Below are positions 367-32,052 of a stretch of DNA of 32,052 nucleotides, in pieces. The stretch is from a virus. The notes below the pieces were generated by a model. It was given only the letters and a program-made list of their open reading frames with translations. It did not search any database and was not told the origin of the DNA. Numbering within the stretch: the first letter of the stretch is position 1; every line of letters begins with the position of its first letter. Position numbers and translations under genes: made by a program. The stretch lies in the IMG/VR virus record IMGVR_UViG_3300045988_137377, positions 1 through 32,052 of that record; one strand, written 5' to 3'.

Positions 367-1218
367 TCATACTTCATTAGATGCTTGTGCTGCTTGCAGC
401 TCAAGCAGCTTGGCCTTAGCCTCTATCATTGCCACCTCGGCCTGCACGCGCTCAGTCTCAGCTCGCATAGCCTCAAGCTCAAGCTCGCGCCGCTCACGAA
501 TCGCAGCAAGCGCGGTTGTGCGCCGCTCTTCCGCAGACCACTCGACAACGCCAGCAAGCTCACGCAATGCTGTTTTCAGCCACATCTTCTCGGGGTATTT
601 CTGCCACGGCGAGAATTTACTCCGAGCTGTCTGCGACGCATCCATAGCCTCCTGTATGCGATCTTTGCCAACCTGCACCACGGGTGATATACCGCCACCT
701 GCGAGGTCGTTATATTCGACCCATGCGACAGCTTTCACTAGCTGCCCACGCTCCTCATCTGGCGCGCGCATATATTTAGGTGATTCGTCTACACCCTCGA
801 CGTACTCGAATTTATCGCCCTCGCGTACTGCTATTCGGTGAATGTTCTTTGCATACCCGGCGCGACGGATTAGCTCGACCCACCCTTTATAGCCTATGTC
901 TGCTACTATTTCGCGTCCGCGTGGCACAAAATATATTTCATCCGTACCAGGGGTAAGACCATACCGAGCCGATTTCTGCAGCATCACTGTAAGCTGCAAA
1001 GGATCATTCAGTGCCAAAGATACAAGTTTAGTGTCATTCCTGATTACCAATGACGCGGCTGCGAGCCAGTCGAGTACGTCACCTTGCATGTGCTTCGGCA
1101 TTGCGGCGGCAATGAATTCTTTTTGCGGCTCGATTATTTTTTTTTGCAGGTCGCGTATTGCGATTTGGCTACTTTGTTGGTTGCGTGAGATTTGGTTTCC
1201 TGGCTGTGGCTGTACCAT
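367..1218 (-). CDS. recT: RecT-family single-strand annealing recombinase
   Basis: Motifs ARYGLTPGTDEIYFVPRG, GYKGWVELIRRAGY and SPWQKYPEKMWLKTALRELA match the RecT family pattern. A YqaJ-type exonuclease gene lies nearby. Confidence 0.85.
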   Translation of the reverse strand: MVQPQPGNQISRNQQSSQIAIRDLQKKIIEPQKEFIAAAMPKHMQGDVLDWLAAASLVIRNDTKLVSLALNDPLQLTVMLQKSARYGLTPGTDEIYFVPRGREIVADIGYKGWVELIRRAGYAKNIHRIAVREGDKFEYVEGVDESPKYMRAPDEERGQLVKAVAWVEYNDLAGGGISPVVQVGKDRIQEAMDASQTARSKFSPWQKYPEKMWLKTALRELAGVVEWSAEERRTTALAAIRERRELELEAMRAETERVQAEVAMIEAKAKLLELQAAQASNEV

Positions 1219-1655: not shown

Positions 1656-2558
1656 TTACTTGAATACAACAAATGGCTTCCCCTGCCCGCGCGCCTGACG
1701 CTTAGCAATAGGTCGCCCATTATACTCAAGCTCAGCGGCGCGCCCCATCTCAATGGCAGCCCAATTCTTAGCTATAGCCTCAGTCTGCTTATACAATTTC
1801 TTGATCCGTTGGAAGCGCTCAATGCGAACAGCTGCATCATTTGACGCAACCACAAGTGTGTCGTCAATTTCAGGGTGCAGCTCGCGCGCAGCCTCATAGA
1901 TCGACATGTCACCCTCTTCTTCTGAAAAGTCAGGCTCTACACCATATTCGAGAGACGCAGCAAATTCTGAACACTCTAGACGCATGCGTTCTACATATTG
2001 TTCGTCGTACTCTATGGTGTACTCACGGAACTGCATTGCGATCAATGCCGCAATAATACACTTTTTTACGCCCGTACAAAACATCTGTGCCTGCACCTGA
2101 GCATAATATCCCAGGGGTATACCATCAGCACCCGAACCAGAAGCACCCCATTCTGCCCCATTCATGGCGGTCTTGCACTCTAGTAGCGCTACTACCTCGG
2201 GTGACTTCTTGCCAGCCTCGGGAATGACTATTAATCGATCAGGCGTGGCAGTGATTACTTCACGGCTCCATGCTAGACCATGCGGATTTAGAACAGAATA
2301 TTCGGGGTGCTGCTGCGTGTACCATTGGGCGATAGCGTCTTCTAAGATGTGCCCGCGTTGAGCAACCTCATGAGTAGGCGACTGCCCCTCAATGTTTCCC
2401 TTCATTGTGTGCCATATGGCATATTTAGAGGTGTACGGCGAGACTTTTAGAATCGCAGCAACCTTGGATGCAGTGATTTTCTTCATCCACTCAGGGCTAC
2501 CTGGCTTAAGCGGCTGTTTTATTGCCCTCTTGCGCAGTTGATACCATTTCATTTCCAT
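1656..2558 (-). CDS. YqaJ-like (lambda-Exo/RecE-class, PD-(D/E)XK) recombination exonuclease
   Basis: GSPEWMKKITASKVAAIL...SPYTSKYAIW...RGHILEDAIAQWY...ATPDRLIV...LLECKTA matches the YqaJ viral recombinase layout. It is paired with RecT. Confidence 0.8.
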   Translation of the reverse strand: MEMKWYQLRKRAIKQPLKPGSPEWMKKITASKVAAILKVSPYTSKYAIWHTMKGNIEGQSPTHEVAQRGHILEDAIAQWYTQQHPEYSVLNPHGLAWSREVITATPDRLIVIPEAGKKSPEVVALLECKTAMNGAEWGASGSGADGIPLGYYAQVQAQMFCTGVKKCIIAALIAMQFREYTIEYDEQYVERMRLECSEFAASLEYGVEPDFSEEEGDMSIYEAARELHPEIDDTLVVASNDAAVRIERFQRIKKLYKQTEAIAKNWAAIEMGRAAELEYNGRPIAKRQARGQGKPFVVFK

Positions 2559-10994: not shown

Positions 10995-11010
10995 CCTGAA
11001 TTATACCTCT
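10995..11010 (-). promoter_or_regulatory. Candidate lysis-cassette promoter (perfect TATAAT, plus coordinates 11000-11005)
   Basis: Minus-sense GAGGTATAATTC lies in an AT-rich gap directly after a terminator. No good -35. Confidence 0.4.
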
Positions 11011-11029
11011 AAAACATAGGAATACTTGA

Positions 11030-11071
11030 ATATAAAACTGCACCCGCACTAAACATAAAGCGCAGGTGCAG
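11030..11071 (-). terminator. Intrinsic terminator after the tail-fibre extension ORF
   Basis: Minus-sense ACTGCACCTGCGC...GTGCGGGTGCAGT followed by TTTTATATT. Confidence 0.6.
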
Positions 11072-11088
11072 TATATACTCAAGGTAAG

Positions 11089-12039
11089 CTATGACGCATC
11101 ATAAAACACGCCTGTAATCTCACCCCAAGTACCACCATGAAGCTCAATACCAGAACTAGACCGCAAATCGGAATAAGGGAACCACAGCAGCCGCTCGCGC
11201 GAACCATCAGCACGGATAACAGAGTAAACCATGACATTGCCCTCGCGTTTCAGCTCTATGCCCTTATCACCAGGTTTCACGTCTCGATTCTCATAACCGC
11301 GAGTATCAGTATTAGACCAACGAAGATCATACCCAGCCGTAGCGTTTATATACTCGCGCCCGATACCATCAGCCTTAGGCGCAGTAGAAACAGCGCGCTT
11401 CTCAATCGAGATAGCCGACCGCTCCCACGTGTCACCGCCACCATTAGTAGAAGCCTCAATCTTCGGCCCCTCACCAGTCCACGAAATGACAGCATACGAA
11501 CCATCATTCACAAACAGGCCAGAAGGTGATACAAGAGACTGCTTCTGGATAGGCGCATTATTGGGCGCCTCCAAAGGCTCACCAGTCTTACTCGACACAG
11601 GACGCTCGTAAGACCTTGCCTTACCATCCGGCGTTTTCAAGCCAGGTGCCCAGAAATACTCACGCAACACACCAGTTTTCATATCGCCGTCCTTCCAGCC
11701 GCCATGAGCCCAAGTGAATACCCACTGGATAGGCTTCTCACCCGGCTTAGGCGCATCCGCCACCTGATAGCTCAGCTGAGACCAATCAGAGTGCTTATCA
11801 CCCTTCACGGCGCGCACCTGGATAATACCAGACTGCCCCGCCCTAACAGTGAACACATGACCAGGCTGAGCAGGTGCGGGCGAAGACCCGTCAATAGCGA
11901 TCTGGTAGCCAGTAGCACCAGTAACAGTATCCCAAGTAACCGTCAAATTGGTGCCACTAGCCTCAACACGCAGACCAGTAGGCGGAGGAACATTATCCGC
12001 GTCAGAAACATGTTCACCTTTACCGCCCGCCTGTTCTCT
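11089..12039 (-). CDS. FN3-like domain plus unknown C-terminal domain; open from the TGA at 12040-12042, with no ATG/GTG/TTG before TTG 11946; probable readthrough extension (or severed part) of the fibre gene
   Basis: Same frame as 12040-14079. PPPTGLRVEASGTNLTVTWDTVTGATGYQIAIDG...SDWS is one FN3-like domain that begins upstream of the first possible start codon. Confidence 0.6.
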   Translation of the reverse strand, partial: REQAGGKGEHVSDADNVPPPTGLRVEASGTNLTVTWDTVTGATGYQIAIDGSSPAPAQPGHVFTVRAGQSGIIQVRAVKGDKHSDWSQLSYQVADAPKPGEKPIQWVFTWAHGGWKDGDMKTGVLREYFWAPGLKTPDGKARSYERPVSSKTGEPLEAPNNAPIQKQSLVSPSGLFVNDGSYAVISWTGEGPKIEASTNGGGDTWERSAISIEKRAVSTAPKADGIGREYINATAGYDLRWSNTDTRGYENRDVKPGDKGIELKREGNVMVYSVIRADGSRERLLWFPYSDLRSSSGIELHGGTWGEITGVFYDAS

Positions 12040-14079
12040 TCAAAAGACAGCACCCGGCACGATGCCGTAGAGATGTGTGCCTGCACGAACCAGGATAACC
12101 AGGCCACTAGCAGGCGCAGCACCATTCTTGGTCTGCCACGTCACACCCTCAGGGTGAGTAACATTATCCAGCAGGAAGAACCAAGCAACATCCGTACCCT
12201 CAGGCAGAGAATACGCACGACCGTTCACAACCTGCACAGTCTCCAACTGAGAAACACGCTTCTCAAACGGCAAAACATTATTAATCCAAGCCTTCGCACG
12301 ATCAGCAACCCACTCAGCCGGTGCCTTATCATACGGGTTCTGGTCTGGTTCATCCTCGCTACCATTACCAACAGCAAAAGTACGATCCGTAGCATATAGG
12401 TGCCCGATACCAGCCTTATCAGCCTTAGCGAACACCGCATCCACATTATCCTTAGTGATGCCATGCACAACATGCCAAAACCGCCACGACGGCATACCAT
12501 CATAATGGCGCGGATGAATATCAGTCACCTTCGCATCAATATACTTCTGAGCGTTAGACTCATAGGTTAACGCAATGTCGCACGCATCCATCATCTCAGG
12601 GCGCGTATTCGACCCAGGGTTAATAATAACTAGTGTATCCTGCCCAGCAATTTCCTTAATCTTCCCGTACAGGCGCTTATAGTACGGCATGATAGCCTTC
12701 TGCTCATCATCCCAGCCATTCACAACCTCGTCAAGGAAGATAGCGAACTTCTTTAGACCGCCACCATTCTTGTACCAAGTCACAAGGTTGCGCACCTGTG
12801 CAAGAATAGCTTCCTCAGTGTCTTCACGCACAGCCTCAGCAGAAACGTTCAGGTTCTTACGGATACGCTCAAAATACGCAGGCGTAGCAAACTCTGAGTT
12901 AGCGCCGTACCGAGTCTGCAAGTAGAACGCTACGTACTTAGCACCAGCCGCCTCAGCAAGCTTACCTTGAGTCAAGAAGTCGTTATCAACCTTGTCACCC
13001 CAGTTGCCAGAAGACTTATTCAGAATCACAATACCCAGCGTGTCACCAAATAACAGCGTCTTTTCCCACTGCGACACCTTACCGGGTTGGTCGCGGTTAT
13101 AGTAATCAGGCCAGTAATAGGTAACCATTGAAATATTGCGTTGTCCGAACCCGTGATTACGCTCACCAATATTCATATCGGCGATAGCCCGAGACACAAC
13201 CGGGGCAACATTCTTCTCAGACTCACGCAAAATATCAGTCTTAGCGGCATCAATCTTACCGTCAATAGTCTGATCTACAGAGTCTAGCGCCTCAGAAACG
13301 ATATTAGTCCGCGCCTGCTCGATACCCTGGCTAATCTTCGTGTCGATAGTGCTATTAACAGACTCAGTAGCCGCCTGCACAATACCAGGCTTAGCTTGCT
13401 CAATCTTAGAATCAATCGCAGAACCAGCAGTACGGAGAATATCACCCTTCAACACCTGCGACTTGGCGTCAAAAGCCGAATCAATCTTAGGGGTAACAAC
13501 AGACTCTATCTTCCCATCAATAGACGAATTGACAGACTGCACCACCTCATCCTTGATAGACGCAGACTTTTCTGTAATTACAGAAGAAACCTTCGCCTCA
13601 ATCGTAGGAGTCACACGCTCATCAATCTGCCGAGTAATCTCACTACCAGCCGCAGCCTGCACAGCTGCCGGCAGCTTCTCAGACAGTTGCGACTCGACAA
13701 CAGTAGCCGCCTGAGACTGAATCATCCCAGGAACAGTAGCCTGAATACGCTCGTCAGCAACAGCACCAGCATGCTCACGCACACCAGACTCAACAGCAGC
13801 CGGAATAGTAGTAGACACTACAGGAGCAATAGCATCAGCAACAGCAGACTGCACACTATCCTTCGCAGCCTGCACAGCCTCAGACTTCACACCAGCAACC
13901 TTATCGGTTGCGGCTTGCTCTGCCGCCTGCACAGCGACAGACTGAATATCCTGCTTCGCCTCGATTACCTTCTCGGTAGCAACCTGCTCAGCAGCCGCAC
14001 GAGCAGACGCAAGCGGGAGACCCGTAAGCGCCCCACTCTCATCAGCAATAACCAGCCGATTCAACCCGCTAATAGCCAT
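12040..14079 (-). CDS. Tail fibre / depolymerase: N-terminal Ala/Val/Gln-rich helical region with S-x-ID-x-KI repeats, central Spherulin4-like (GH135-like) glycosidase domain
   Basis: YYWPDYY...GIVILNKSSGNWG...YVAFYLQTRYG...FAIFLDEV...LVIINPGS...CDIALTYES follows the Spherulin4 (PF12138) block order. Position is after the baseplate genes. Confidence 0.65.
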   Translation of the reverse strand: MAISGLNRLVIADESGALTGLPLASARAAAEQVATEKVIEAKQDIQSVAVQAAEQAATDKVAGVKSEAVQAAKDSVQSAVADAIAPVVSTTIPAAVESGVREHAGAVADERIQATVPGMIQSQAATVVESQLSEKLPAAVQAAAGSEITRQIDERVTPTIEAKVSSVITEKSASIKDEVVQSVNSSIDGKIESVVTPKIDSAFDAKSQVLKGDILRTAGSAIDSKIEQAKPGIVQAATESVNSTIDTKISQGIEQARTNIVSEALDSVDQTIDGKIDAAKTDILRESEKNVAPVVSRAIADMNIGERNHGFGQRNISMVTYYWPDYYNRDQPGKVSQWEKTLLFGDTLGIVILNKSSGNWGDKVDNDFLTQGKLAEAAGAKYVAFYLQTRYGANSEFATPAYFERIRKNLNVSAEAVREDTEEAILAQVRNLVTWYKNGGGLKKFAIFLDEVVNGWDDEQKAIMPYYKRLYGKIKEIAGQDTLVIINPGSNTRPEMMDACDIALTYESNAQKYIDAKVTDIHPRHYDGMPSWRFWHVVHGITKDNVDAVFAKADKAGIGHLYATDRTFAVGNGSEDEPDQNPYDKAPAEWVADRAKAWINNVLPFEKRVSQLETVQVVNGRAYSLPEGTDVAWFFLLDNVTHPEGVTWQTKNGAAPASGLVILVRAGTHLYGIVPGAVF

Positions 14080-14081
14080 AA

Positions 14082-14549
14082 TTAGACCTCCTCAATTCTA
14101 GCGGTACCATCACCATTATCTACCACACGGTAGTCACGTGGTGAACCGCCACCGCCCTGCTCAACATTGCGTACATTACCTCTACGGTAAGGTGCAGCGA
14201 AAATCTCAGCAATATCCAGAGAATCACCAGCCTGCACAGTAAAAACAACCGGGTCACACGGAATAACACCACCATCAGAATAAATCCGCGCGTGCGCCTC
14301 CCACGACCACCAAGCCGGGGCATCCTGCCCAGCCTCAGGCGCGAGCAGACGAATATCACGCTCACCCCCATACGACAAGTAGCCGCTAGAACCCAGCTCA
14401 GCCGTAACCTCAACAGGAAGCGAAGTCGCAGACCCCGACACCACAAGGCTAGTAGGGCGAAAAATAATCTTTCCACGAAGTGGGCGAGCAGACCCACCAA
14501 CAGGTGCAGCAGGATTCAAAAACCTGCCGCGAATAGTCGCATACCCCAT
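14082..14549 (-). CDS. Minor tail / baseplate-associated protein (155 aa)
   Basis: Position between the large tail-tip protein and the fibre. The RBS for the next gene (GAGGAGG) lies in its 3' end. Confidence 0.45.
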   Translation of the reverse strand: MGYATIRGRFLNPAAPVGGSARPLRGKIIFRPTSLVVSGSATSLPVEVTAELGSSGYLSYGGERDIRLLAPEAGQDAPAWWSWEAHARIYSDGGVIPCDPVVFTVQAGDSLDIAEIFAAPYRRGNVRNVEQGGGGSPRDYRVVDNGDGTARIEEV

Positions 14550-17677: not shown

Positions 17678-20600
17678 TTACCTCCGTGCCTGCAAAGTTG
17701 TTGAACGCATCGTGCCGTAGAATTGTCGCCCATCAATATTTACCATAGGTCTCCAGTTAGACAGCGCCTCGACTATCTGATTATACAGGTCAGGTGCCTG
17801 GGGTGGTGCCACAAATTCACTCCGACCAGAGACGTGCCCGCCAGCAGAGAAGCCGCGCACAAAATCACCCGAATTGATACGCTCCAACAATCCACGATGC
17901 TTACGTGTAGCATCAGCATTCACGATAAACTCTCCTGATCGAACCATGAGAGGCACACCAGCATCAGTTACAGCAGGCACATTATCAGTCCACCTGGACA
18001 ACGGTTCACGCCCAGGGATAACACCTCCGGTAGCGAAGCCAGGGACAGCGCCACCATGCGCACGCCAACCGCCACGACGACCCAGAGTTTTCTTCACAGA
18101 ATCAACCATCTTCCGCTCAAAAATCTGGGTGATCGTAGTCGTCTTCTGGCGCGGAATGCTATCAAGGTTTGACTTGTAGTTATTGATGTTACTGTTAGCT
18201 ACACCTGTCCGAGCATTAGCAACCGTATCAACCCTACCAGGAACACTATTAGCCTTATTCGCCAAAGCACCAAGCTGCCCAAAAGCCTGCTCCGTATCAG
18301 CATTAGCTGCAATATTCACATTGCCACCCGCAGCGTCACTAGCCTCACGCAAATACTTGAGCTTACCCGTAGCCGCGTCCACACCAAACACCTGTGTACC
18401 GATAACGACCTCACGAGGCATACGCTCAATATCATTATTCAGAGAAGTCATCACACGGGCAGCCGTAGTATCAGCCCACGTGTCAATCGACACGCGGTCA
18501 GGGATAGCGTAAATCGAGTGAATCAGCTGTTCAGCCTCATCAGAGGTCAAACCCATCTGCAACGCAGACTGACGCAGCGTATCAATCACACCATGAATAT
18601 GGTTACGAACAGCGTCATAGTCGCCACCCTGACGAGCAACAGCAGAAGAAGCCTGGATACCTTCCTGCGCCATCTTCGCAAAAGCATCATTCAGCTTTTG
18701 CCCCGCTTTCGTGGTCTGATCGAAAGTTCTCGTCTGCCCATCATATGCCGCTGAGTTCTTCTGGATAGCCTCAGACAAATCGTCCATGGACTTGTAGTAG
18801 TCAGCCATGCTCTTAGTCGAGTCAGCAAACCCGCCCGCGAGCATCTTCAAACCCTTATCAAGGTCTTCAACAGCAGAGCCAGCACCCTCAACCCATTTAG
18901 CCATCTCCTGCGCTTCACCAGAAAGCCCCTGCATAGCGGCAGAGCCTTCATCTAGCGAGTTTTTCTGAACCTCAAGGGAGTGTTTCAGCTCGTCCTGTGC
19001 ACGAGCAGCATCAGCAAGCTTGGGTGGATACTCGCCAAGCATGACCTGGTACTTCTCTTCATCAGTCAGAGACACGTTCAGGGACGAAGCATAATTCTCG
19101 ACGGCTTCTTTCAGCTTCGGGAACGCCTGCATGTACTCCTGAGCCGTGTATTTCGCGCGCCCCTGCGCCTCAGACGCTGCGTCTGTTTCGCGTACAATCG
19201 ACTGGAAGAACTTCTCAGCCTCACCACGATTCTCAGCATACAAGCTGCCCAATGACTCATCTAGGTTCGTTACAGCCTCTTTGAGAGCGTCAGCACCAAC
19301 CTTAGCGCCAGCCGTGTGGGATACCCATTGAGAGAAGCCTTCCATCGCGTCGCCAGAGTCAGCCTTGAGCTTCACCAGGGCTTCACCCAAGCCGTTCACC
19401 TTGGGCACTTGGTCTTCCAGACCAAGGAAAGCCCAGGTAGCTTTACCGCCCATGTCTTTGAATTTCTGGTTTACCTGGTCTAGGTTTCCGCCCGTGTTCT
19501 TTAGCGCACTGTTCATACTGTCGAGTGATGGTGCTTTGTACTCCGTGTTCGCTGCGCTAACGAAAAGCACGATACCTTCGGCTGCGAGTGCGGCGGTACC
19601 AGCGATCTTGCCTAGTGTTGCACCGAGCCTACCGAGCTTTGAGCCGCTAGCAGCGGCAGCTGCACCCTCAGTAGACTCGGCAAGCTCTCGTGTAGATGCT
19701 GATGCAGTACTCGCAGACACGGAGAATGAAGCCAGCGTGGCTTTCATGGTCTGGTATGCAGTGATGAATTTAGCGGCGGCGGCTACACCAAGCAAGGCTA
19801 CACCGGTGAGACCGACCACAGTAAGGTTCACTGCGAGGAATGACGGCGGCAGCTTACCCATGAAATCGAGTAGACCTGTAGCCATCTGCACGAGTCCACG
19901 GAAGAAATCAGACAGGCCGCCGGAAGAGCTAAGAATAATCGTGTCGATAGCACCACCTAGCTTCTCAATATCGCCAGCTAGGTTGTCCTGCTGAATAGCA
20001 GCCGTACTAGCAGCGTATCCAGCGTCATTAGTCTTATCGATCCAGCCTTGAATGCCTTCTTGCCCTTGGGTGTATAGCACGTTGGCGGCACGCACAGCGT
20101 CAGACCCGAAGATGGTTGCGAGCGCAGCGTCACGCTGTGCGGGTGTCAGGTTCTCTAGCCCACGCTTCAGATCGCCAGCAACAGCGGTAATACCCTTGAA
20201 CTTACCCTCAGCATTGTACAGTGAGATGCCGTACTCAGCCATAAGCCCAGCCGCTTCCTTGGATGGATTCTGTAGCTTCTGCAGCATGACCTTGAAAGAT
20301 GTACCAGCGTCAGAGCCGACCAGACCAGCAGACGCGAACGCAGCAAGCGTACCCGTTGTCTCCTCAATCGACAACCCGGTTTGCGCCGCGACAAGACCAG
20401 ACTGTTTAAGGGCATACCCGAGGTCGCCAACGCTACCCTGAGCTTTACCAGCACCAGCCGCAAGAAGGTCAGCAACATGCCCAATATCCGAGCCTTTCAA
20501 CCCGAACTGGGTCATCGCCGTAGCAGCCAACTCGGCAGCCTCGCCAACCTCAATATTACCCGCAGCAGCGAGCGACAACGCACCAGACAACCCACCACCG

Positions 20601-21556
20601 AGAATGTCCTTAGTCTCGACACCAGCCTTAGCAAGCTCTTCAATACCATTAGCCGCCTCAGAGCCAGAGTACTTAGTGTCCGCGCCAGCCTTCATAGCAG
20701 CCTCACGAAGCTTATTCATATTGCCAGCAGTCTCATGCGTAGCCGCCTGCACCTGCGACATAGCCTTGTCAAAATCGGCGTACTGCTTCACAGCGTACCC
20801 AAAACCAGCCGTAAGCGCGGCACCACCAAGCGCAGCGCCCGTAGAAATATGATCCAAAGCGTCACGGTTCGACAGAATATTCTTCGCGAGAGTGCGAGCC
20901 TCATTACCCAGGTCACGGAAATACCCGCCAACGCTAGAAACCATAGCCCGCCCACGATCAGCCATAGCCCCAAATGCACCAGTCACAGAGTCCTTAGCGC
21001 TAGAGAACGCATAACGAATACCCGTAGTAAACGAGTTATACATCACAGCAGAACCAAAGTTACTGTTCCTGAATGCAGACCCAGCCGCAGACGCTGCAGA
21101 AGACACACTAGACTTAACAGCCGACGCATAGTCACGCCACCCAACACTAGCGGTACGAGACGCACGCTCCATTACACCGGTAATACTGCCCGCGCTTGCT
21201 TTCGCGGCTTCTGCGGCTTCTTTGTATGCTGCTTTTTCGGCTCGGGTCATTCCGCTTATTACGCCTACGCGTTCGCGTGCTGCGGTGGATGCGGCTGCGG
21301 CGGCGGCGCGTCCTGCTTCTCGTGCGGCGGCGGCGGCTGATTGGGCGGAGCCTTTGGCTGCTTCGGATTGCGCGGCTTTGGCTGCGTTGGCTGTTGCTTT
21401 TGCTGTTTCGTGTGCAGCCTGTTGTGCTGCGTTGCGTGCACTGTTGGCGGCGGCTGTCACGCCGGCGACAAAGTTCTTGGTGTCTGCCCGTAGCTGGATA
21501 GTGACTGTTTGCGCAGCGCTTGATTTGCCTCCGCGTGATCCGCCGGTTCGTGCCAT
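17678..21556 (-). CDS. Tape measure protein (1292 aa)
   Basis: Ala-rich helical N-terminus; TP901-type TMP core (KQYADFDKAMSQVQAAT...GIEELAKAGV...GDLGYALKQSG...SFKVMLQKL); hydrophobic central segments; longest ORF after the chaperone pair. Confidence 0.9.
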   Translation of the reverse strand: MARTGGSRGGKSSAAQTVTIQLRADTKNFVAGVTAAANSARNAAQQAAHETAKATANAAKAAQSEAAKGSAQSAAAAAREAGRAAAAAASTAARERVGVISGMTRAEKAAYKEAAEAAKASAGSITGVMERASRTASVGWRDYASAVKSSVSSAASAAGSAFRNSNFGSAVMYNSFTTGIRYAFSSAKDSVTGAFGAMADRGRAMVSSVGGYFRDLGNEARTLAKNILSNRDALDHISTGAALGGAALTAGFGYAVKQYADFDKAMSQVQAATHETAGNMNKLREAAMKAGADTKYSGSEAANGIEELAKAGVETKDILGGGLSGALSLAAAGNIEVGEAAELAATAMTQFGLKGSDIGHVADLLAAGAGKAQGSVGDLGYALKQSGLVAAQTGLSIEETTGTLAAFASAGLVGSDAGTSFKVMLQKLQNPSKEAAGLMAEYGISLYNAEGKFKGITAVAGDLKRGLENLTPAQRDAALATIFGSDAVRAANVLYTQGQEGIQGWIDKTNDAGYAASTAAIQQDNLAGDIEKLGGAIDTIILSSSGGLSDFFRGLVQMATGLLDFMGKLPPSFLAVNLTVVGLTGVALLGVAAAAKFITAYQTMKATLASFSVSASTASASTRELAESTEGAAAAASGSKLGRLGATLGKIAGTAALAAEGIVLFVSAANTEYKAPSLDSMNSALKNTGGNLDQVNQKFKDMGGKATWAFLGLEDQVPKVNGLGEALVKLKADSGDAMEGFSQWVSHTAGAKVGADALKEAVTNLDESLGSLYAENRGEAEKFFQSIVRETDAASEAQGRAKYTAQEYMQAFPKLKEAVENYASSLNVSLTDEEKYQVMLGEYPPKLADAARAQDELKHSLEVQKNSLDEGSAAMQGLSGEAQEMAKWVEGAGSAVEDLDKGLKMLAGGFADSTKSMADYYKSMDDLSEAIQKNSAAYDGQTRTFDQTTKAGQKLNDAFAKMAQEGIQASSAVARQGGDYDAVRNHIHGVIDTLRQSALQMGLTSDEAEQLIHSIYAIPDRVSIDTWADTTAARVMTSLNNDIERMPREVVIGTQVFGVDAATGKLKYLREASDAAGGNVNIAANADTEQAFGQLGALANKANSVPGRVDTVANARTGVANSNINNYKSNLDSIPRQKTTTITQIFERKMVDSVKKTLGRRGGWRAHGGAVPGFATGGVIPGREPLSRWTDNVPAVTDAGVPLMVRSGEFIVNADATRKHRGLLERINSGDFVRGFSAGGHVSGRSEFVAPPQAPDLYNQIVEALSNWRPMVNIDGRQFYGTMRSTTLQARR

Positions 21557-21560: not shown

Positions 21561-22031
21561 TTACTCCTGCTCTTCCTCAGATAGTTGCTGCTGCCATTCT
21601 AGTAGGTCTAGGTACGCTGGGTCTTCTGTCGCGTCGTAAGGCTCCGGAACAAGAATATCGCCTGGGCGGGGCTTGTAGTCTTCCCGCTGCGTGATTTGCT
21701 CGACAGCTTCCTTTGCCTTACAGGTGTATGTTTCGACCTCGAACTGGGTGTGCCCTTCACGGCATTTTTTGCGTGGGTTGCCGCATTCTGGGCATAGCTC
21801 AGCCTGGTAGATTTCCCACCCTAACGCGGCTGTCATGTCGCGGTCTGTCCAGTCGCGGGTACTGTCGCCCAATAGCATTGCGGATGGTGGTTTGCCCCAG
21901 CGGGCGGCTGCACGCATTACGAGTACAGCCGCCGCATTTTCTTCTTCTATTAGGCTATCGGCGACGAAATCGGGGCGACACCTCCAGCGTTGCCTCGGCG
22001 GCGCGTGCTTCGCCGTAGGTTGAGAGGCACT
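21561..22031 (-). CDS. Tail assembly chaperone downstream frame (T-like part); open from 22031, first ATG 21917 lacks an RBS; expected to be expressed as a frameshift fusion with 21955-22509
   Basis: Overlaps the last ~25 codons of the upstream chaperone ORF. Its frame is +1 relative to that ORF (first-base coordinates 2 vs 0 mod 3). Confidence 0.55.
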   Translation of the reverse strand, partial: SASQPTAKHAPPRQRWRCRPDFVADSLIEEENAAAVLVMRAAARWGKPPSAMLLGDSTRDWTDRDMTAALGWEIYQAELCPECGNPRKKCREGHTQFEVETYTCKAKEAVEQITQREDYKPRPGDILVPEPYDATEDPAYLDLLEWQQQLSEEEQE

Positions 22032-26370: not shown

Positions 26371-27285
26371 CTATAGCCCCTTCATGATCGAAAGAATATC
26401 GTCCACAGTTGCAGACTGTGATTCCTGGACGTGAGCGCCCATACCGTAGACGGGAGATTGTGCAGACTTTGCAGCCAGCACCTCTTTGAGGGATTCCTGC
26501 ACACGAGTCTCGAATTCATCCCGGCTCAAGCCAGCTGCTGACTCTACAAGCATTTTGCGAGTCGTGGGCGCGTCCACGTTGCGGAATGCCTCAGCAACAA
26601 CAGCCTCAGCGTCTTTCTTCGCGCCCTCTGCTTCAAGCTCTTCTACTTTGGCTTTCAGTTCGTCGCGCTCTGCTTTCAGGTCTTCAACCTGCTTTTTCAG
26701 CTCGGTTACCTCGGGTGACTCAACCTTAGGTGCATCCTGTACGGGTGCTGCCGTCGGCTTAGTCACGGGTACGCCATCAGCTTCAACAATGTTCGCCATG
26801 CCGTCCACCTCTCTACTAGATTCCAGGACGGCAGTAATCTTCCCGCCGCGCCCCGGCTTCGTAACAAAATCAACAGAATCGACCTGCGTAATCTCTTTAA
26901 TCACCCGGTCTTTCCCAGGCGCCATTATACCAGACGCGTTAATAGACACGCCTATATACGGGGCACGCTCACGAATAAAGTCGCGGTACTCAGGAAAAAT
27001 CTTCGCACGACCAACCAGTGCGCCCGAATCATCAACAACAGGGCGACCATCAATAACACCAGCCAGCTCACGAATATCACCCTCAGGACGAGACGCACGC
27101 TCACTACCTGTCGCATGGTTCATATACATGTGCACAGGCGAATCCCAGATAGGCGACTCTGCAAGCTTCTTGATAGTCTCAGGCGGGTACTCGCCAGAAC
27201 TACCCTTACCCGGTGTAATGATAGTCACAGCCACCAGGGAGCCAGTCGGCTCACCATCAGCCTCAATCAAATGCACACTAGACAC
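26371..27285 (-). CDS. Capsid scaffolding protein (possibly a protease-scaffold fusion)
   Basis: C-terminal charged coiled coil (VTELKKQVEDLKAERDELKAKVEELEAEGAKK). Position between the MuF-like and capsid genes. Confidence 0.55.
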   Translation of the reverse strand: MSSVHLIEADGEPTGSLVAVTIITPGKGSSGEYPPETIKKLAESPIWDSPVHMYMNHATGSERASRPEGDIRELAGVIDGRPVVDDSGALVGRAKIFPEYRDFIRERAPYIGVSINASGIMAPGKDRVIKEITQVDSVDFVTKPGRGGKITAVLESSREVDGMANIVEADGVPVTKPTAAPVQDAPKVESPEVTELKKQVEDLKAERDELKAKVEELEAEGAKKDAEAVVAEAFRNVDAPTTRKMLVESAAGLSRDEFETRVQESLKEVLAAKSAQSPVYGMGAHVQESQSATVDDILSIMKGL

Positions 27286-28130
27286 TACTTCCTCCTAGCC
27301 AAAATGTCAGACAAATTACGTTGAGTCCAATACATAGACCCATCATACCAGCGGGCACGCCGCGACAAATCAGACCACGCAATAGACCCATCAGCCAGAC
27401 CTCGCACAACCTCCATACCTTGAGACGATGAAGCTACACCTGCTATAGCTTCTACCTGTGAATCGAAATCGAGTGAGTCGAACCACTCTCTACCCGAGTT
27501 ACGAGCGGTAATGTCAGGATACTGACTTAGAAGCGGTGCCATTACGCAGCGGCAGTTTGGGTGTGAGTGTAGTTCTCCGCTCATGTGTTTTTCGCCGTGG
27601 TGCATGATGCATGACCGGCATGTGTTTTTGTCGAGTTGTGCGACCCATTGCCAGCCTTGGTTTTGGATTTGTTGGGTGAGTGTTTGGGTGGTGCGTCGTG
27701 TGGCTTGTTGTGTGGCTAGGTTTATGCCTAGTGTGATGGCGGTGGCTATTTGTGTGATTTTGGTTTTTAGGCTAGTTATGTTGATTTTTTCTGGTTTGGG
27801 TGGTGGTGTGGGTTGGGGGAGTGTTTGTGTTGTGTAGTTTTGGAGGTGGTGGTGTGTGGTGGTGGTGGCTTGGTTGGCTGCTTGTTGTGCGGCTTGGTTG
27901 GTTTGGTGTTGGATGGTGGCTAGGGTGGTGGCGTATGTGGTTAGGGCGGCGGTCTGTTGTTTGTGTCGTGTGTGGCGTGGTGTGAGTGTGCCTAGTGCGG
28001 TGATGGATGCGAGTGTGGCGGTTAGGTTTTGGTGGTTTTGGTGTGCGGCGATGATGAGGGGTTGGGTGTGTTGGTTTTCTATTTGGGTGAGGTCTTGTTG
28101 TAGGTTTTGGGCGTATTCTTCTGGGGTCAT
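27285..28130 (-). CDS. Minor head protein, SPP1 gp7 / Mu F-like, with an extreme low-complexity T/Q/H/N/P/A N-terminal half
   Basis: WQWVAQLDKNTCRSCIMHHGEKH...HSHPNCRCV is the MuF/gp7 signature. ATGA overlap with the portal stop. Confidence 0.75.
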   Translation of the reverse strand: MTPEEYAQNLQQDLTQIENQHTQPLIIAAHQNHQNLTATLASITALGTLTPRHTRHKQQTAALTTYATTLATIQHQTNQAAQQAANQATTTTHHHLQNYTTQTLPQPTPPPKPEKINITSLKTKITQIATAITLGINLATQQATRRTTQTLTQQIQNQGWQWVAQLDKNTCRSCIMHHGEKHMSGELHSHPNCRCVMAPLLSQYPDITARNSGREWFDSLDFDSQVEAIAGVASSSQGMEVVRGLADGSIAWSDLSRRARWYDGSMYWTQRNLSDILARRK

Positions 28131-29533
28131 TTGATTTCTCCTGCGTATGCTGCGCGGATTAGTGCGTCGCCTGTGGTTTCGGTGGTGCGATGGATTTGTC
28201 CGTTTTCGTCGCGGAGTTGGTTTATTTTTTCGTCTGGGTCTGTGATTCCGAGTGCACGCATGGCGAGTAGTGCGGTTTGGTCTAGTGGGAGTATGCCGAG
28301 CTGGTCTGCTGTGGTGATTGCGTCTAGTTGTGCTTGGGTGGGTTCGGGTGTGATGTCGTCCCAGTGGAAGGTGATTGTGCGGGGTGCTTCTGCGGGTAGG
28401 TTACCTAGCGTGATTTGTGTGTCGATGATGTGGTTGATGATTGCGCGGTATGTTTCTTCCCAGGTGCGGCGGCGCGCTTCGATTTCGAGTTGTAGGGGGC
28501 GGTCGAGTGTTTCGGCTACTGCGCGGGCACCGGTTTGTCCTGGGTCTGCGAGTAGCATTGTGACGGGTACGCCTAGGGCGGCGGCGATCATGGCAGCTAA
28601 GGGTTTGCCTGATTCCGCGTCGATGGTCGCGCCCGTGTTTGGCATGGTGGTGATTTCTGCGTCTACTAGCCCTATTGCGCCGGGCTGTGTGGCTGTGGCG
28701 GCTTGCTGTATGGCGCGGCGTGCTTCTTGTACGGCGCGGGAGGTTTTGCCTGTGATGCGGTGGCTGATTTTACTGATGGCGCGCATGAGCCGCGCCCAAT
28801 CTTGCAGATAGTTCTTGTAGGCGCTGATCCAAGGTGAGGCTGCAAACAGGTCGGGTGTGCCTAGCAGGCTCATGGGGATGCGATTTACGGCATGGTGGTA
28901 GATGGGTGTATTCCAGTCTACGGGGATACCATCTAGCTCTGCATATTTATTCGCTGAATCGTATCCTATTGCGGGGTGCCATGTTTTGACAGTGTGTCCG
29001 TACTGGTAGTAGGAGCGCAGGTATAGGGCGGGGCGGGCGCTGTCTTCCTGCATTGGAAGAATTTTCTCGATATGCTCGATACCCTCGGTGCGCACAACAG
29101 CGCGTCCGGTAGCAGGATCAGTGAAAATCAGAAAGAAAATATTTCCGTCTGCCGCTTCCTGGGTTCCGATTGCCTGGTGTGCACTGTGCCCGGTTAGGGA
29201 GATGCGGTTATCCGGATCATCAAGGAAAGCCTGGATAATCTCGTTTACGCCTGACTCATCGTCGCAGGTGATGCCTATACCAGACCCGAAAACATATGAT
29301 GTGCGGATACTCACGCCGCGTTTACCTAGCGGGTCTGCAACGGCGAGCACGCGGCATGTCTCGGCGATATTCTGTACTCCAGACAGGGAGAACTCTGTTT
29401 CGGCGGCGGCCGCAATAGACCGCCACTCCGTATTTTGTGCCCATGCCTGTTCTAGATCGGCGATTGACTCTTGCAGGTCACGTGTCGCTTCTCGTAGCTC
29501 GCGGCGCTCACGGCGCGCATCAAAAATACCCAT
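28127..29533 (-). CDS. Portal protein (468 aa)
   Basis: Follows the large terminase. Size and sequence pattern (e.g. LGTPDLFAASPWISAYKNYL...GKPLAAMIAAALGVPVTMLL) are typical of SPP1-type portals. Confidence 0.85.
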   Translation of the reverse strand: MGIFDARRERRELREATRDLQESIADLEQAWAQNTEWRSIAAAAETEFSLSGVQNIAETCRVLAVADPLGKRGVSIRTSYVFGSGIGITCDDESGVNEIIQAFLDDPDNRISLTGHSAHQAIGTQEAADGNIFFLIFTDPATGRAVVRTEGIEHIEKILPMQEDSARPALYLRSYYQYGHTVKTWHPAIGYDSANKYAELDGIPVDWNTPIYHHAVNRIPMSLLGTPDLFAASPWISAYKNYLQDWARLMRAISKISHRITGKTSRAVQEARRAIQQAATATQPGAIGLVDAEITTMPNTGATIDAESGKPLAAMIAAALGVPVTMLLADPGQTGARAVAETLDRPLQLEIEARRRTWEETYRAIINHIIDTQITLGNLPAEAPRTITFHWDDITPEPTQAQLDAITTADQLGILPLDQTALLAMRALGITDPDEKINQLRDENGQIHRTTETTGDALIRAAYAGEIK

Positions 29534-31661: not shown

Positions 31662-32052
31662 TTAGTCTAGTCCAAATTGGATTTTAGCGGTTTCGATTAA
31701 AGATTTATAAACCTTACCATGCATATTATCGCCATGAGTAGACTCGACAGCTTCAAGAAATTCTTCAATAGAACCAGTGAAACAACCCCTAGTTACCCTA
31801 ACTCCTATCTCTGAGTCCCTGTAGATTGTCAAACATCCACGCTCACTGCCAATATCTAATACAGTAATCATATCCACCTGGCTGGTCACCCGTGCGTTGC
31901 CGTACACCCGTGCGTCTCCGGTCACCCGTGCGTTGCCGTACACCTGTGCGTTGCCGTACACCCGTGCGTCTCCGTACACCTGTGCGTTGCCGTACACCCG
32001 TGCGTCTCCAGTCACCCATGCGTCTCCGGTCACCCGTGCGTTGCCGTACACC
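31662..32052 (-). CDS. Hexapeptide-repeat protein, C-terminal part (5' end runs off the window and continues from base 273-1)
   Basis: (V)YGNARVT GDAWVT GDARVY GNAQVY GDARVY GNAQVY GNARVT GDARVY GNARVT, then SQVDMITVLDIGSERGCLTIYRDSEIGVRVTRGCFTGSIEEFLEAVESTHGDNMHGKVYKSLIETAKIQFGLD and a TAA stop. Confidence 0.75.
   Translation of the reverse strand, partial: VYGNARVTGDAWVTGDARVYGNAQVYGDARVYGNAQVYGNARVTGDARVYGNARVTSQVDMITVLDIGSERGCLTIYRDSEIGVRVTRGCFTGSIEEFLEAVESTHGDNMHGKVYKSLIETAKIQFGLD
31884..32052. repeat. 9.4 tandem 18-bp units of the same family as 1-108
   Basis: Units start at 31884, 31902, 31920, 31938, 31956, 31974, 31992, 32010 and 32028. The last 25 nt are identical to bases 1-25. 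Confidence 0.95.

What the first reader, a model, noticed from the sequence alone, without database searches (positions are those of the whole stretch)
27660..28125. About 470-bp tract whose coding strand is almost pure A+C (plus strand G+T): nucleotide-driven low-complexity half of the MuF-like protein
From about 27660 to the start codon at 28130 the plus strand is overwhelmingly G and T. In 27841-27960 I count 5 A and 10 C in 120 nt. The encoded N-terminal ~155 residues are dominated by T, Q, H, N, P and K, which are exactly the amino acids specified by codons made only of A and C, plus Ala, Leu and Ile. Val, Phe, Asp, Gly, Trp, Cys and Met are almost absent. The conserved MuF/gp7 motif region just downstream (27300-27650) has normal composition. 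The bias therefore appears to act at DNA level rather than through protein selection. Possible causes are strand-specific transition hypermutation (C->T plus A->G on the plus strand, i.e. deaminase-like damage to one strand), a tolerated disordered linker drifting under mutational pressure, or selection for a sequence property. A GT-only strand cannot contain any palindromic restriction site, and GGTGG runs may form non-B structures. The adjoining 3' end of the portal gene (28130-28560) is also A-poor on the plus strand, though less extremely.
Basis: partly seen in the sequence, partly recalled or inferred. Interest (0 to 1): 0.65.

Follow-up and report, generated by a model that had tools for sequence, protein, structure and literature searches.

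The report
Maintained A+C-only coding-strand tract in phage
A 1.2-kb stretch across the portal and MuF genes of a human-oral phage uses almost only A and C wherever the proteins allow, and about 22 diverged relatives keep it that way, so a persistent DNA-level force is at work rather than protein selection or a single burst of mutation.

Summary
Plus strand 27660-28125 is 86% G+T. At third codon positions the A/C-only state runs from 28769 (portal codon ~250) across the gene junction to 27540 (MuF codon ~197): 409 codons, 93% A/C against 39% elsewhere, and 154 of 156 in the MuF N-half.

A second tract lies in the tape-measure gene (21413-21191). Each tract ends abruptly against a patch of G/T-ending codons.

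All ~22 relatives (84-90% nucleotide identity, independent human-oral assemblies) share the tract and its edges. Their four-fold sites are heavily substituted yet stay 91-96% A/C. Polymorphism inside is mostly A<->C. Both transitions and transversions to G/T are depleted 3-18-fold. This is a maintained equilibrium, not a one-off transition hypermutation.

The low-complexity MuF N-half is an eroded but still constrained MuF N-domain.

I rejected restriction-site avoidance, Chi-like motifs, a frameshift fusion, DGR and tandem repeats, and unstructured mRNA as the general driver.

Favoured mechanism (inferred, ~0.35): strand-polar gene conversion by the phage's RecT/exonuclease, filtered by actinobacterial NucS mismatch repair, which rejects only G/T-containing mismatches. 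Rivals are persistent one-strand deamination and direct selection. What confines the tract is unexplained.

The parts
27540..28769 (-). Full A/C-only ('M') domain on the coding strand. It covers the portal from codon ~250 to its stop, the overlapping stop/start (ATGA at 28127-28130), and MuF codons 1-197.
   Evidence: Maximum-likelihood change points on third codon positions: 409 codons, 93.2% A/C, P = 3e-119. Third-position strings. Family-level profile over 9 genomes. A/C-type polymorphism dominates 28760-27560 in 15 genomes.
27660..28125 (-).
   Evidence: 86% G+T on the plus strand. Third positions 154/156 A/C. Sense-RNA MFE is -3 to -18 kcal/mol per 150 nt over 27751-28500, against a genome mean of -41.5 +/- 9.2.
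27285..28130 (-). MuF-like minor head protein gene (281 aa). The C-terminal ~140 aa form the conserved MuF domain with a Cys/His motif. The N-terminal ~157 aa are an eroded, shortened MuF N-domain.
   Evidence: Pfam PF04233 E = 9e-6, 26.8 bits, below the 29.6 cut-off. BLASTP to MuF of relatives: E = 2e-22 and 1e-12, residues 139-281 only. The alignment keeps the QLP, G.N and A..R markers in the N-half. AlphaFold2 pLDDT 45, predicted helices only.
28127..29533 (-). Portal gene. Its last ~220 codons lie in the tract. The protein is conserved, and only synonymous positions (plus T at position 1) are shifted.
   Evidence: Last 150 codons: third positions 93% A/C, position-1 T 3%. Amino-acid identity among relatives 95%. 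tblastn matches to portal proteins of actinobacteriophages.
26900..27539 (-). Adjoining 'K' patch: G/T-ending codons (A/C 8-30% at third positions) start within about 10 codons of the end of the tract and relax to ~50% by ~26800.
   Evidence: Plus-strand keto skew is -0.40 at 27300-27419 against +0.67 to +0.83 at 27660-27899. The cumulative keto skew of the window has its global minimum at ~27500.
21191..21413 (-). Second A/C-only tract, in the N-terminal part of the tape-measure gene (17678-21556). A weaker A/C bias extends upstream to ~21917.
   Evidence: 74 codons, 95.9% A/C, P = 1e-25. Ala codons change from GCA/GCC to GCG/GCT within ~5 codons at ~21200. Conserved in 9 genomes.
20480..21190 (-). 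K patch following the tape-measure tract (third positions 3-30% A/C).
367..1218 (-). RecT-family single-strand annealing protein. It is an inferred component of the favoured mechanism.
   Evidence: Pfam PF03837 E = 1.6e-24.
1656..2558 (-). YqaJ-type 5'-3' exonuclease, the partner of RecT (inferred component). A RusA-like resolvase lies at 4580-4954 and an O-like replication initiator at 5968-6933.
   Evidence: Pfam PF09588 E = 4e-18. PHROG 34 and PHROG 270.

Best explanation
WHAT IT IS (shown). The reported tract is the core of a 1.23-kb strand-compositional domain, 27540-28769. Every position that the portal and MuF proteins leave free carries A or C on the coding (minus) strand, which means G or T on the plus strand. 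The domain ignores the gene boundary and has sharp edges. A smaller twin lies in the tape-measure gene. All known members of a family of ~32-kb human-oral phages with actinobacterial (Rothia-like) affinities share it. It is an equilibrium: synonymous sites have turned over many times but only between A and C. The odd MuF N-terminal protein sequence is a by-product. This is the least constrained protein segment in the domain, so its first and second codon positions were carried along too.

HOW IT IS MAINTAINED (inferred). I favour a strand-polar biased gene conversion.
1. These phages recombine constantly in short patches, and they encode a RecT annealing protein with a 5'-3' exonuclease. Single strands from co-infecting relatives are therefore assimilated into the genome.
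2. In actinobacteria the mismatch-repair enzyme NucS/EndoMS recognises only G.T, G.G and T.T mismatches. In RecT recombineering it erases the incoming base more than 500-fold when such a mismatch forms. Every mismatch that contains an A or a C passes.
3. A donor G or T therefore cannot replace a recipient A or C on the donor-sense strand. A donor A or C can always replace a G or T. A<->C exchanges pass freely.
4. Where the donor strand has one fixed polarity, that strand is driven to pure A+C. Where the polarity is opposite, the coding strand becomes G/T-ending instead.
5. A recurrent DNA end at ~27540 (and at ~21200), resected 5'-3', would give minus-strand donors to its right and plus-strand donors to its left. 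That matches the observed A/C tract on the right and the G/T patch on the left.

What fixes the polarity at these two places is not explained.
For: SHOWN
- The bias sits at synonymous sites.
- About 22 relatives share the tract and its edges.
- Four-fold sites in the tract are 91-96% A/C, although mean pairwise four-fold difference is 0.28-0.35 there and 0.49 in TerL.
- G/T alleles in the tract are rare and mostly present in 1-3 genomes.
- Derived alleles per site-lineage in the MuF tract against TerL: A->C .175 vs .143; C->A .147 vs .094; A->G .016 vs .116; C->T .016 vs .180; A->T .005 vs .090; C->G .018 vs .058. All four routes to G/T are blocked, and the A<->C route is open.
- Recombination is pervasive. 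Distance matrices of adjacent 600-nt segments correlate at only r = 0.2-0.6, and nearest neighbours change from segment to segment. L012 and L014 are identical over 4.6 kb except for two ~45-nt patches that carry alleles seen in other relatives.
- The phage encodes RecT, a YqaJ exonuclease and RusA.
- Actinobacterial affinity: all 65 portal relatives found in genomes are Actinomycetota, the best being Rothia nasimurium at 42%. The phage matches are Microbacterium, Arthrobacter, Glutamicibacter and Brevibacterium phages. The samples are human oral.
- There is a sign flip with a mirror-image G/T patch.

FROM PAPERS
- NucS/EndoMS cleaves only G/T, G/G and T/T (PMC6159521).
- In M. smegmatis with phage Che9c RecT, oligos that form those three mismatches give more than 500-fold fewer recombinants and all other mismatches escape. 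Correction is local, spanning a few bases and not 32 (PMC11551767).
- NucS lowers recombination about 10-fold at 90% identity (PMC8228993).
- Ordinary replication asymmetry in an actinobacterium is only 2-4-fold, too weak for 96-99% purity.
Against: - The host is not identified, and its NucS is assumed from phylogenetic affinity only. No close prophage was found, and lysin homologues gave no organism names.
- Nothing shows that donor strands have a fixed polarity here, or why that would be confined to 1.2 kb and 0.25 kb.
- No repeats, iterons or promoter-like sites mark the flip points.
- Both flip points lie inside conserved genes, an unusual place for a pac site, nick or origin. The O-like initiator gene (5968-6933) lies at the cumulative-skew maximum, not the minimum.
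- Other actinophages with RecT (Kukla, BIM BV-113) and ~60 actinobacterial prophage relatives lack such tracts.
- The G/T patch is much less pure than the A/C tract: T->C .093 and G->A .106 are barely depleted. A simple mirror model does not predict this.
- Consensus-based polarisation of alleles is crude, and allele copies are not independent events.
Confidence: 0.35

Rival explanations
1. Persistent strand-specific deamination. The plus strand of this stretch is single-stranded far more often than its partner, because of uncoupled DNA synthesis starting at ~27540, a displaced strand at an origin-like site, or an R-loop made by antisense transcription. Its C and A are continually deaminated to U and hypoxanthine. 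The plus strand therefore drifts to G+T and the coding strand to A+C, as on the heavy strand of vertebrate mitochondrial DNA.
For: - A and C are exactly the two deaminable bases.
- GC skew and TA skew are equally strong (+0.66 to +0.86).
- Third-position composition of the tract (A47 C52) equals the background with every G turned into A and every T into C (17+29 = 46; 22+32 = 54).
- The sign flip at 27540 and 21200 has the polarity of diverging leading strands. The global minimum of cumulative keto skew lies at ~27500.
- Bias increases towards the flip point on both sides.
- The depletion of transversion-derived G/T, and the slightly raised A<->C rates, fit rapid secondary T->C and G->A changes.
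- A known analogue exists: the AC-rich L-strand of mitochondria (PMC1794132).
Against: - It needs a local rate asymmetry of at least 17-47-fold at equilibrium that reverses within ~30 nt. Measured replication asymmetry in an actinobacterium is 2-4-fold.
- Transcription-coupled exposure predicts the opposite sign, because the coding strand is the exposed one.
- No promoter-like sites for an antisense transcript were found, and no origin-like repeats.
- The likely origin lies at the initiator gene, 5968-6933.
- A is depleted at least as fully as C on the plus strand, although C deaminates much faster (my own knowledge).
- No deaminase gene was detected in the phage.
Confidence: 0.25
2. Direct natural selection on a nucleic-acid property of the tract. 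Candidates: an mRNA of A and C that cannot base-pair (structure-free, with no start or stop codons, no pause or terminator signals, and a C-rich, G-poor Rho-loading surface); codons all read by Watson-Crick wobble pairing; or a G+T DNA strand favoured by recombination proteins.
For: - Very high purity, rare G/T alleles, sharp edges, and conservation of place even in relatives with 45-49% portal identity (L022, L024, D_HF5_3) all look like selection.
- Local equilibrium composition changes on a scale of a few hundred nucleotides. Selection explains this more easily than mutation does.
- The MuF part gives ~750 nt of essentially unstructured mRNA.
Against: - No candidate property holds over the whole feature. 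The portal part (28500-28769), the tape-measure tract and the G/T patches fold like the rest of the genome.
- No over-represented motif was found.
- Palindromes are only 2-fold fewer in the tract. The genome-wide 6-mer palindrome deficit (0.64) equals lambda's (0.61) and owes little to the patchiness.
- A Rho-loading site would not need U removed.
- The tract crosses a gene boundary and stops inside two genes, so translation-level explanations are strained.
- The opposite G/T state next door is not explained.
Confidence: 0.15
3. A single hypermutation event in one ancestor, or a segment imported from a donor phage of extreme composition, that has simply not yet decayed.
For: The composition equals an all-transition conversion of the background. 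The edges are sharp, like mosaic junctions.
Against: - Each lineage carries a non-consensus base at about 0.3 of TerL four-fold sites. My rough estimate, not computed, is that without maintenance about 20% G+T would have reappeared at four-fold sites in the tract. Observed values are 3.7% (MuF part) and 8.9% (portal part).
- Changes that did occur are A<->C.
- No donor with such composition was found among ~60 prophage relatives or the reference phages.
Confidence: 0.04
4. Protein-level selection for a T/Q/H/N/P/K-rich low-complexity domain, with codon choice a side effect.
For: The N-half sequence is conserved (85% identity), with an invariant TTHHHLQNYTTQT block.
Against: - Two-fold and four-fold synonymous choices are all A/C.
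- The same bias covers the ordinary, well-conserved portal C-terminus and part of the tape-measure protein.
- Homologous MuF N-domains in relatives have normal composition.
Confidence: 0.02

Closest known systems
Strand asymmetry of vertebrate mitochondrial DNA (AC-rich L-strand, GT-rich H-strand)
   Same: The coding strand is A+C-rich and third codon positions are strongly A/C. Both GC and AT skews are involved, and the amino acids encoded shift accordingly. It is attributed to C->U and A->hypoxanthine deamination of the strand left single-stranded during replication (PMC1794132; mechanism from my own knowledge).
   Different: There the asymmetry is genome-wide, graded and never changes sign. 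Here it is confined to 1.2 kb and 0.25 kb, is purer (96-99% at free sites), has edges a few codons wide, and abuts the opposite state. No replication mechanism is known for this phage.
GC-biased gene conversion, and mismatch-repair-dependent marker effects in RecT/Beta recombineering
   Same: Allele transmission is skewed by which mismatches the repair system sees in heteroduplex DNA. The effect mimics selection and can override weak protein constraint. The NucS rule (only G.T, G.G and T.T are corrected, >500-fold) was measured with a phage RecT (PMC11551767).
   Different: Classical gBGC favours G:C pairs symmetrically on both strands. The bias proposed here is amino over keto bases and is strand-specific. 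To my knowledge it has not been described as an evolutionary force. Here it is an inference, not a measurement.
Replication-associated GC/keto skew of bacterial chromosomes and phages
   Same: One strand is G+T-rich, the sign switches at defined points, and the cumulative skew curve is V-shaped. The C. glutamicum mutation spectrum makes the leading strand richer in G and T (PMC6159521).
   Different: The magnitude differs. Keto fractions in 470-nt windows reach 0.61-0.64 in lambda and two actinophages, against 0.86 here. The measured rate asymmetry is only 2-4-fold.
Clustered strand-coordinated hypermutation (APOBEC kataegis, AID at switch regions)
   Same: It is kilobase-scale, strand-coordinated, sharply bounded and linked to single-stranded DNA at breaks or R-loops (my own knowledge).
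   Different: Those are recent events seen against unmutated relatives, consist of transitions at C only, and affect a minority of sites. Here all relatives share the state, and current variation is A<->C.
SPP1 gp7 / Mu F minor head proteins
   Same: The gene sits between the portal and the scaffold/protease. The C-terminal 140 aa align to MuF proteins, including the GW..A.LD..TC..C motif.
   Different: The N-terminal domain is ~65 residues shorter, lacks the 'RA..IARTE' block, and has been recoded into A/C-only codons.

Membership tests
Phage Mu F / SPP1 gp7 minor head protein (PF04233) | Significant match to the family profile | tested here: inconclusive
   PF04233 E = 9.3e-6 and 26.8 bits, below the curated cut-off of 29.6, covering residues 139-197 only. 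PHROG minor-head and head-morphogenesis families score E = 2e-6 to 2e-4.
Phage Mu F / SPP1 gp7 minor head protein (PF04233) | Homology to bona fide MuF-domain proteins, and position directly downstream of the portal gene | tested here: met
   BLASTP E = 2e-22 to the L022 protein and 1e-12 to the D_HF5_3 'minor head protein GP7', both carrying PF04233. Gene order is TerL-portal-MuF-protease/scaffold-decoration-MCP.
One-off strand-specific hypermutated tract (deaminase 'kataegis' type) | The tract is absent or much weaker in close relatives, and differences from them are directional transitions | tested here: not met
   All ~22 relatives have it. Polymorphism is mostly A<->C.
Diversity-generating retroelement variable region | Template/variable repeat pair, a nearby reverse transcriptase, and adenine-specific substitutions | tested here: not met
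   There is no repeat copy of the tract. No reverse transcriptase appeared among the Pfam or PHROG hits for the early genes. Substitutions are A<->C, not A-to-N.
Tandem or simple-sequence repeat | Head-to-tail repeat units account for the composition | tested here: not met
   Tandem Repeats Finder reports only arrays of 19-56 nt scoring 32-59. Direct repeats are short, low-identity chance matches.
Chi-like or RecA-loading GT-rich recombination signal | A specific oligomer over-represented on the G+T strand | tested here: not met
   No GT-rich 5-7-mer is enriched over codon-phase-preserving shuffles.
Rho utilisation (rut) region | C-rich, G-poor, unstructured RNA that is free of ribosomes | tested here: inconclusive
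   C 44%, G 7%, and unstructured over ~750 nt. But the RNA is translated, U is removed as completely as G, and termination cannot be tested here.
Mitochondrial-type replication strand asymmetry | Third positions A/C on the sense strand, with combined GC and AT skew | tested here: met
Mitochondrial-type replication strand asymmetry | One strand demonstrably single-stranded for long periods, with bias proportional to exposure time | not testable with these tools
   This needs replication-intermediate or DNA-end mapping. Only the composition gradient towards 27540 is seen.
NucS-filtered strand-polar gene conversion (proposed here) | All changes to G/T on one strand are blocked, A<->C is free, and recombination is frequent | tested here: met
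NucS-filtered strand-polar gene conversion (proposed here) | The host has NucS, and donor strands have a fixed polarity in the tract | not testable with these tools
   The host is inferred only as an actinobacterium of the Rothia type. Donor polarity is unknown.

The most novel reading that the evidence does not exclude
In actinobacterial hosts, the unusual mismatch specificity of NucS (only keto-keto mismatches are corrected), combined with phage RecT single-strand assimilation, produces a strong strand-specific biased gene conversion towards A and C. This would be a previously undescribed evolutionary drive. It could rewrite kilobase stretches of a phage genome to a two-letter alphabet at all free sites, override protein conservation (the eroded MuF N-domain), and mark where and in which polarity phage genomes exchange single strands.
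Probability: 0.3. Interest if true: 0.85.

Novelty: new variant of a known kind. Interest (0 to 1): 0.68.

Why it matters
Strand compositional skews are normally weak and genome-wide, and are read as passive footprints of replication. Here a kilobase-scale domain sits at nearly the theoretical maximum. It is sharply bounded, flips sign, and stays stable while synonymous sites are heavily substituted.

Some process, whether repair-biased recombination, targeted single-strand damage or unrecognised selection, is therefore strong enough to dictate codon choice completely and to erode a conserved protein domain.

If the NucS/RecT conversion drive is the cause, it would be a bacterial and phage counterpart of GC-biased gene conversion, with a different and strand-specific rule. 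It would affect how codon usage, dN/dS and 'low-complexity' proteins are interpreted in actinobacteriophages. The tracts would also become natural reporters of recombination polarity.

The question is directly testable with phage crosses in nucS+ and nucS- hosts. In practice, such tracts also break assemblies (two contigs end inside this one) and mislead gene and domain callers.

Tried and rejected
1. Near-identical phage in INPHARED: none found.
2. One-off hypermutation: rejected by the shared tract, the heavy turnover at synonymous sites and the A<->C spectrum.
3. Protein-level selection: rejected by synonymous codon use.
4. DGR, repeats, iterons or a hairpin between the A/C and G/T halves: no repeats or inverted repeats of note, and no shared 9-mers between the two flip regions.
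5. Chi-like or other motifs: none enriched. Two-tetrad G4 motifs are common on the plus strand, but there is no three-tetrad motif.
6. Portal-MuF fusion by -1 frameshift. The MuF frame is open 90 codons upstream of its ATG in the window. That length varies from 24 to 359 codons among relatives, and no conserved slippery heptamer exists. This is a by-product of T-poverty.
7. Restriction-site avoidance: the palindrome deficit is ordinary and is not due to the tract.
8. Unstructured mRNA as the general driver: true only for 27751-28500.
9. Sigma-70-type antisense promoters at the flip points: none. The scan does not model actinobacterial promoters well.
10. Recent-mutation spectrum from close pairs: only one close pair exists, and its differences are gene-conversion patches.
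11. Amino-acid replacement direction in the portal against outgroups: both the tract and non-tract halves shift towards A/C-richer codons (0.32 vs 0.27). This does not discriminate.
12. Scan of IMG/VR for long G/T runs: the tool needs 14 specified bases.
13. Host identification by prophage or lysin: no close prophage and no names.
14. Structure of MuF: low confidence, so no fold search was run.
15. Transcription-coupled asymmetry: the early leftward operon and the late operon are on the same strand but have opposite mild skews.
Full report
**1.

On the plus strand, 27660-28125 is A 6.9%, C 7.3%, G 44.4%, T 41.4%; the whole window is close to 25% each. The genes are as stated:
- a 281-aa MuF-like ORF at 27285-28130 on the minus strand;
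- its ATG overlaps the stop of the portal gene, 28127-29533;
- TerL lies upstream and a protease/scaffold gene downstream.

A 470-nt window with 86% G+T is far outside what I found elsewhere. The maxima are 0.61-0.64 in lambda, Arthrobacter phage Kukla and Glutamicibacter phage BIM BV-113. About 60 actinobacterial prophage relatives reach at most 0.71 A+C on the coding strand.

**2. The bias is in the nucleotides, not the protein**

In MuF codons 2-157 the third positions are A 47%, C 52%, G 1%, T 1% (154 of 156). The other genes of the window have A 17, C 22, G 29, T 32. Gln is CAA 25:1 in the tract but CAG 272:74 elsewhere. His, Asn, Asp and Tyr use only the C-ending codon, and Lys and Glu only the A-ending one.

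The last 150 codons of the portal, an ordinary well-conserved protein, also have 93% A/C at third positions.

A three-segment likelihood fit on third positions puts the edges at 28769 and 27540: 409 codons, 93.2% A/C, P = 3e-119 against 39%. The feature is therefore 1.23 kb long, crosses a gene junction and ends inside two genes.

In the MuF N-half the first and second positions have followed. That is why the protein there is made of T, Q, H, N, P and K, plus A, L and I.

**3. It is not unique in the genome**

A second tract lies in the N-terminal part of the tape-measure gene (21413-21191; 74 codons, 96% A/C, P = 1e-25). There the Ala codons change from GCA/GCC to GCG/GCT within about five codons.

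Third positions across the window form a patchwork:
- A/C patches;
- G/T patches with almost no A, at 27530-26900, 21190-20480 and 14549-11089;
- mixed regions such as TerL and the major capsid gene.

Each A/C tract builds up gradually in the direction of transcription, ends abruptly, and is followed by a G/T patch that relaxes over 0.7-1 kb. The cumulative plus-strand keto skew has its global minimum at ~27500, a local minimum at ~21100, and its maximum at ~7000 next to the O-like initiator gene.

**4. Relatives**

The MuF protein has 60 relatives at 79-96% identity, nearly all 280-283 aa, mostly on contigs of about 32 kb. I retrieved about 22 distinct genomes from IMG/VR, ENA and Logan. One ENA contig from a human oral metagenome is identical to the window and shows that the map is circular or permuted.

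All relatives have the tract, with 76-85% A+C in the MuF N-half and the same edges. They are 84-90% identical to one another in a star-like pattern.

More distant oral phages, with 45-49% portal identity, include the published saliva phage Caudovirus D_HF5_3. They have a weaker A/C tract over portal-MuF-scaffold and in the tape-measure N-terminus.

All 65 portal relatives found in bacterial genomes are Actinomycetota, the best being Rothia nasimurium at 42%. No close prophage exists. The host is therefore probably an oral actinobacterium of the Rothia type, but this is an inference.

**5. The tract is a maintained equilibrium**

Four-fold sites among the relatives are heavily substituted. Mean pairwise difference is 0.49 in TerL, where 184 of 193 sites are polymorphic. 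Yet four-fold sites in the tract are 96% (MuF part) and 91% (portal part) A/C. 68% of them are polymorphic for A/C at intermediate frequencies, while G or T alleles occur mostly in one to three genomes.

Polymorphism type changes at the tract edges. A/C pairs dominate from 28760 to 27560, and A/G and C/T pairs dominate outside.

| Derived allele, per site-lineage | MuF tract | TerL |
|---|---|---|
| A->C | .175 | .143 |
| C->A | .147 | .094 |
| A->G | .016 | .116 |
| C->T | .016 | .180 |
| A->T | .005 | .090 |
| C->G | .018 | .058 |

Changes to G or T are depleted 3-18-fold whether they are transitions or transversions. A single ancestral hypermutation, or an imported segment, would by now have regained roughly 20% G+T at these sites (my rough estimate, not computed).

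**6. The protein**

The MuF N-half is the least constrained segment. Its amino-acid identity is 0.85, and its position 1+2 to position 3 divergence ratio is 0.35, against 0.19 for the MuF C-half, 0.08-0.12 for the portal and 0.06 for TerL. It is still under purifying selection.

It aligns with the N-domain of normal MuF proteins, keeping the QLP, G.N and A..R markers. It is about 65 residues shorter, and the RA..IARTE block is gone. BLAST sees homology only from residue 139 onward. An AlphaFold2 model was of low confidence (pLDDT 45) and predicted only helices.

The segment is an eroded functional domain, not a free linker.

**7. Functional ideas tested and not supported**

- No over-represented oligomer was found.
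- There are no repeats, iterons or long inverted repeats.
- There are no sigma-70-like promoters at the flip points.
- There is no conserved slippery site for a portal-MuF frameshift fusion, and the open upstream frame varies from 24 to 359 codons.
- Six-base palindromes are at 0.64 of expectation, as in lambda (0.61). The patchiness contributes little, and the tract has only two-fold fewer.
- Sense mRNA is almost structure-free only between 27751 and 28500 (-3 to -18 kcal/mol per 150 nt, against -41.5 +/- 9.2). The portal part beyond 28500, the tape-measure tract and the G/T patches fold normally. Absence of structure therefore cannot be what is maintained everywhere.

**8. Recombination**

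Pairwise-distance matrices of adjacent 600-nt segments correlate at only r = 0.2-0.6, and nearest neighbours change from segment to segment. The one close pair, L012 and L014, is identical over 4.6 kb except for two ~45-nt patches that carry alleles present in other relatives.

Short-patch gene conversion among co-circulating variants is therefore pervasive. The phage encodes RecT, a YqaJ-type exonuclease and RusA.

**9. Mechanism (inference)**

The partition is amino bases (A, C) on one strand and keto bases (G, T) on the other. Two DNA-level processes respect exactly this partition.

(a) Deamination of C and A on a strand that is often single-stranded, as in mitochondria. This fits the chemistry, the equal GC and TA skews, the origin-like polarity of the sign flips and the gradient. 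It needs a local asymmetry of at least 17-47-fold that reverses within ~30 nt, whereas measured replication asymmetry in Corynebacterium is 2-4-fold. Transcription would give the opposite sign.

(b) Mismatch-repair-filtered gene conversion.
- Actinobacterial NucS/EndoMS cuts only G/T, G/G and T/T mismatches.
- In M. smegmatis, with a phage RecT, oligonucleotides that create those mismatches yield more than 500-fold fewer recombinants, while all others escape. Correction is local and restores the recipient base.
- It follows that an incoming single strand cannot install G or T where the recipient has A or C. It can always install A or C, and A<->C changes pass freely.
- With donors of one polarity, this is a strong drive to A+C on the donor-sense strand.

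Model (b) predicts what one search shows: all four routes to G/T closed and A<->C open. It also predicts rare G/T alleles, purity beyond any mutational skew, erosion of weakly constrained protein positions, and a sign that depends on donor polarity. Resection 5'-3' from a recurrent DNA end at ~27540 would give minus-strand donors on the right (the A/C tract) and plus-strand donors on the left (the G/T patch), strongest near the end, as observed.

I favour (b) at about 0.35, (a) at about 0.25 and direct selection at about 0.15.

Weak points of (b):
- the host and its NucS are inferred;
- nothing shows a DNA end, nick or fork reversal at the flip points, which lie inside conserved genes;
- other actinophages with RecT lack such tracts;
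- the G/T patch is much less pure than the A/C tract.

**10. Verdict**

The finding is real, reproducible across independent assemblies, and larger than reported. The DNA-level reading is right and the 'hypermutation event' reading is wrong.

I found no description of such tracts in phages. It is an extreme, local and actively maintained form of strand compositional asymmetry. The cause is unresolved but can be tested experimentally.

Noticed in passing
window 31662-32051, continuing at window 1 (circular map): An ORF encodes tandem 'YGNARVTGDA'-type repeats, with faint bactofilin/beta-solenoid Pfam hits on the full 266-aa product in L036. It lies between RecT and the small terminase gene. Many independent contigs of relatives end 3.8-4.1 kb upstream of MuF, which is at this repeat, so it probably breaks assemblies rather than marking genome ends.
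   Followed up: partly
window 11089-14549 and 17678-21190: Tail genes have third codon positions that are 85-100% G/T with almost no A. This is the opposite extreme of the reported tract and extends over several kilobases.
   Followed up: partly
L012 vs L014, equivalent to window 27621-27660 and 26974-27019: Two otherwise identical genomes (4.6 kb compared) differ only in two ~45-nt patches whose alleles occur in other relatives. These are short gene-conversion tracts, and both lie close to the 27540 flip point.
   Followed up: yes
L008 and L016 (IMGVR_UViG_3300006261_000005, 58.5 kb): One contig carries two diverged copies (~87-89% identity) of this ~32-kb phage. It is either a chimeric assembly or a concatenation of two co-occurring variants. 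Either way it shows that diverged relatives share a sample.
   Followed up: no
window 27835-27872 (MuF residues 91-103): The block TTHHHLQNYTTQT is invariant in the 13 aligned relatives. It is encoded by (ACC)n(CAC)n, which reads GGTGGTGGTGTGTGGTGGTGGTGG on the plus strand, a two-tetrad G-quadruplex-type sequence. Whether the conservation is at the protein or the DNA level was not resolved.
   Followed up: partly
window 27540-27640 (MuF residues 166-197): A Cys/His-rich motif, TCRSCIMHHGEKHMSGELHSHPNCRC. C171, C174, H178, H190 and C195 are invariant across distant MuF relatives, which suggests a zinc-binding site in this MuF subfamily.
   Followed up: no
L026 (Caudovirus D_HF5_3, OR148987) 1855-4774 and ~10100-11500: This published saliva phage has a weaker version of the same tracts: third positions A 25-35%, C ~50%, T 2-6% from the mid-portal to the mid-scaffold. 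Its cumulative keto skew has a minimum at the start of the tape-measure gene and a maximum at the exo/RecT genes.
   Followed up: partly
window 6933-9128: The only plus-strand ORFs of the genome (7079-8958) have no Pfam or PHROG match. No integrase was recognised in the ORFs that were scanned. The structural genes between 10495 and 24786 were not scanned, apart from 21561-21917 (PHROGs only). The phage may be strictly lytic.
   Followed up: no
L020 and L021 (IMG sample 7000000261): Two contigs from one sample end inside the tract, at MuF residues ~103-114. Assemblers evidently fail in this low-complexity DNA.
   Followed up: no
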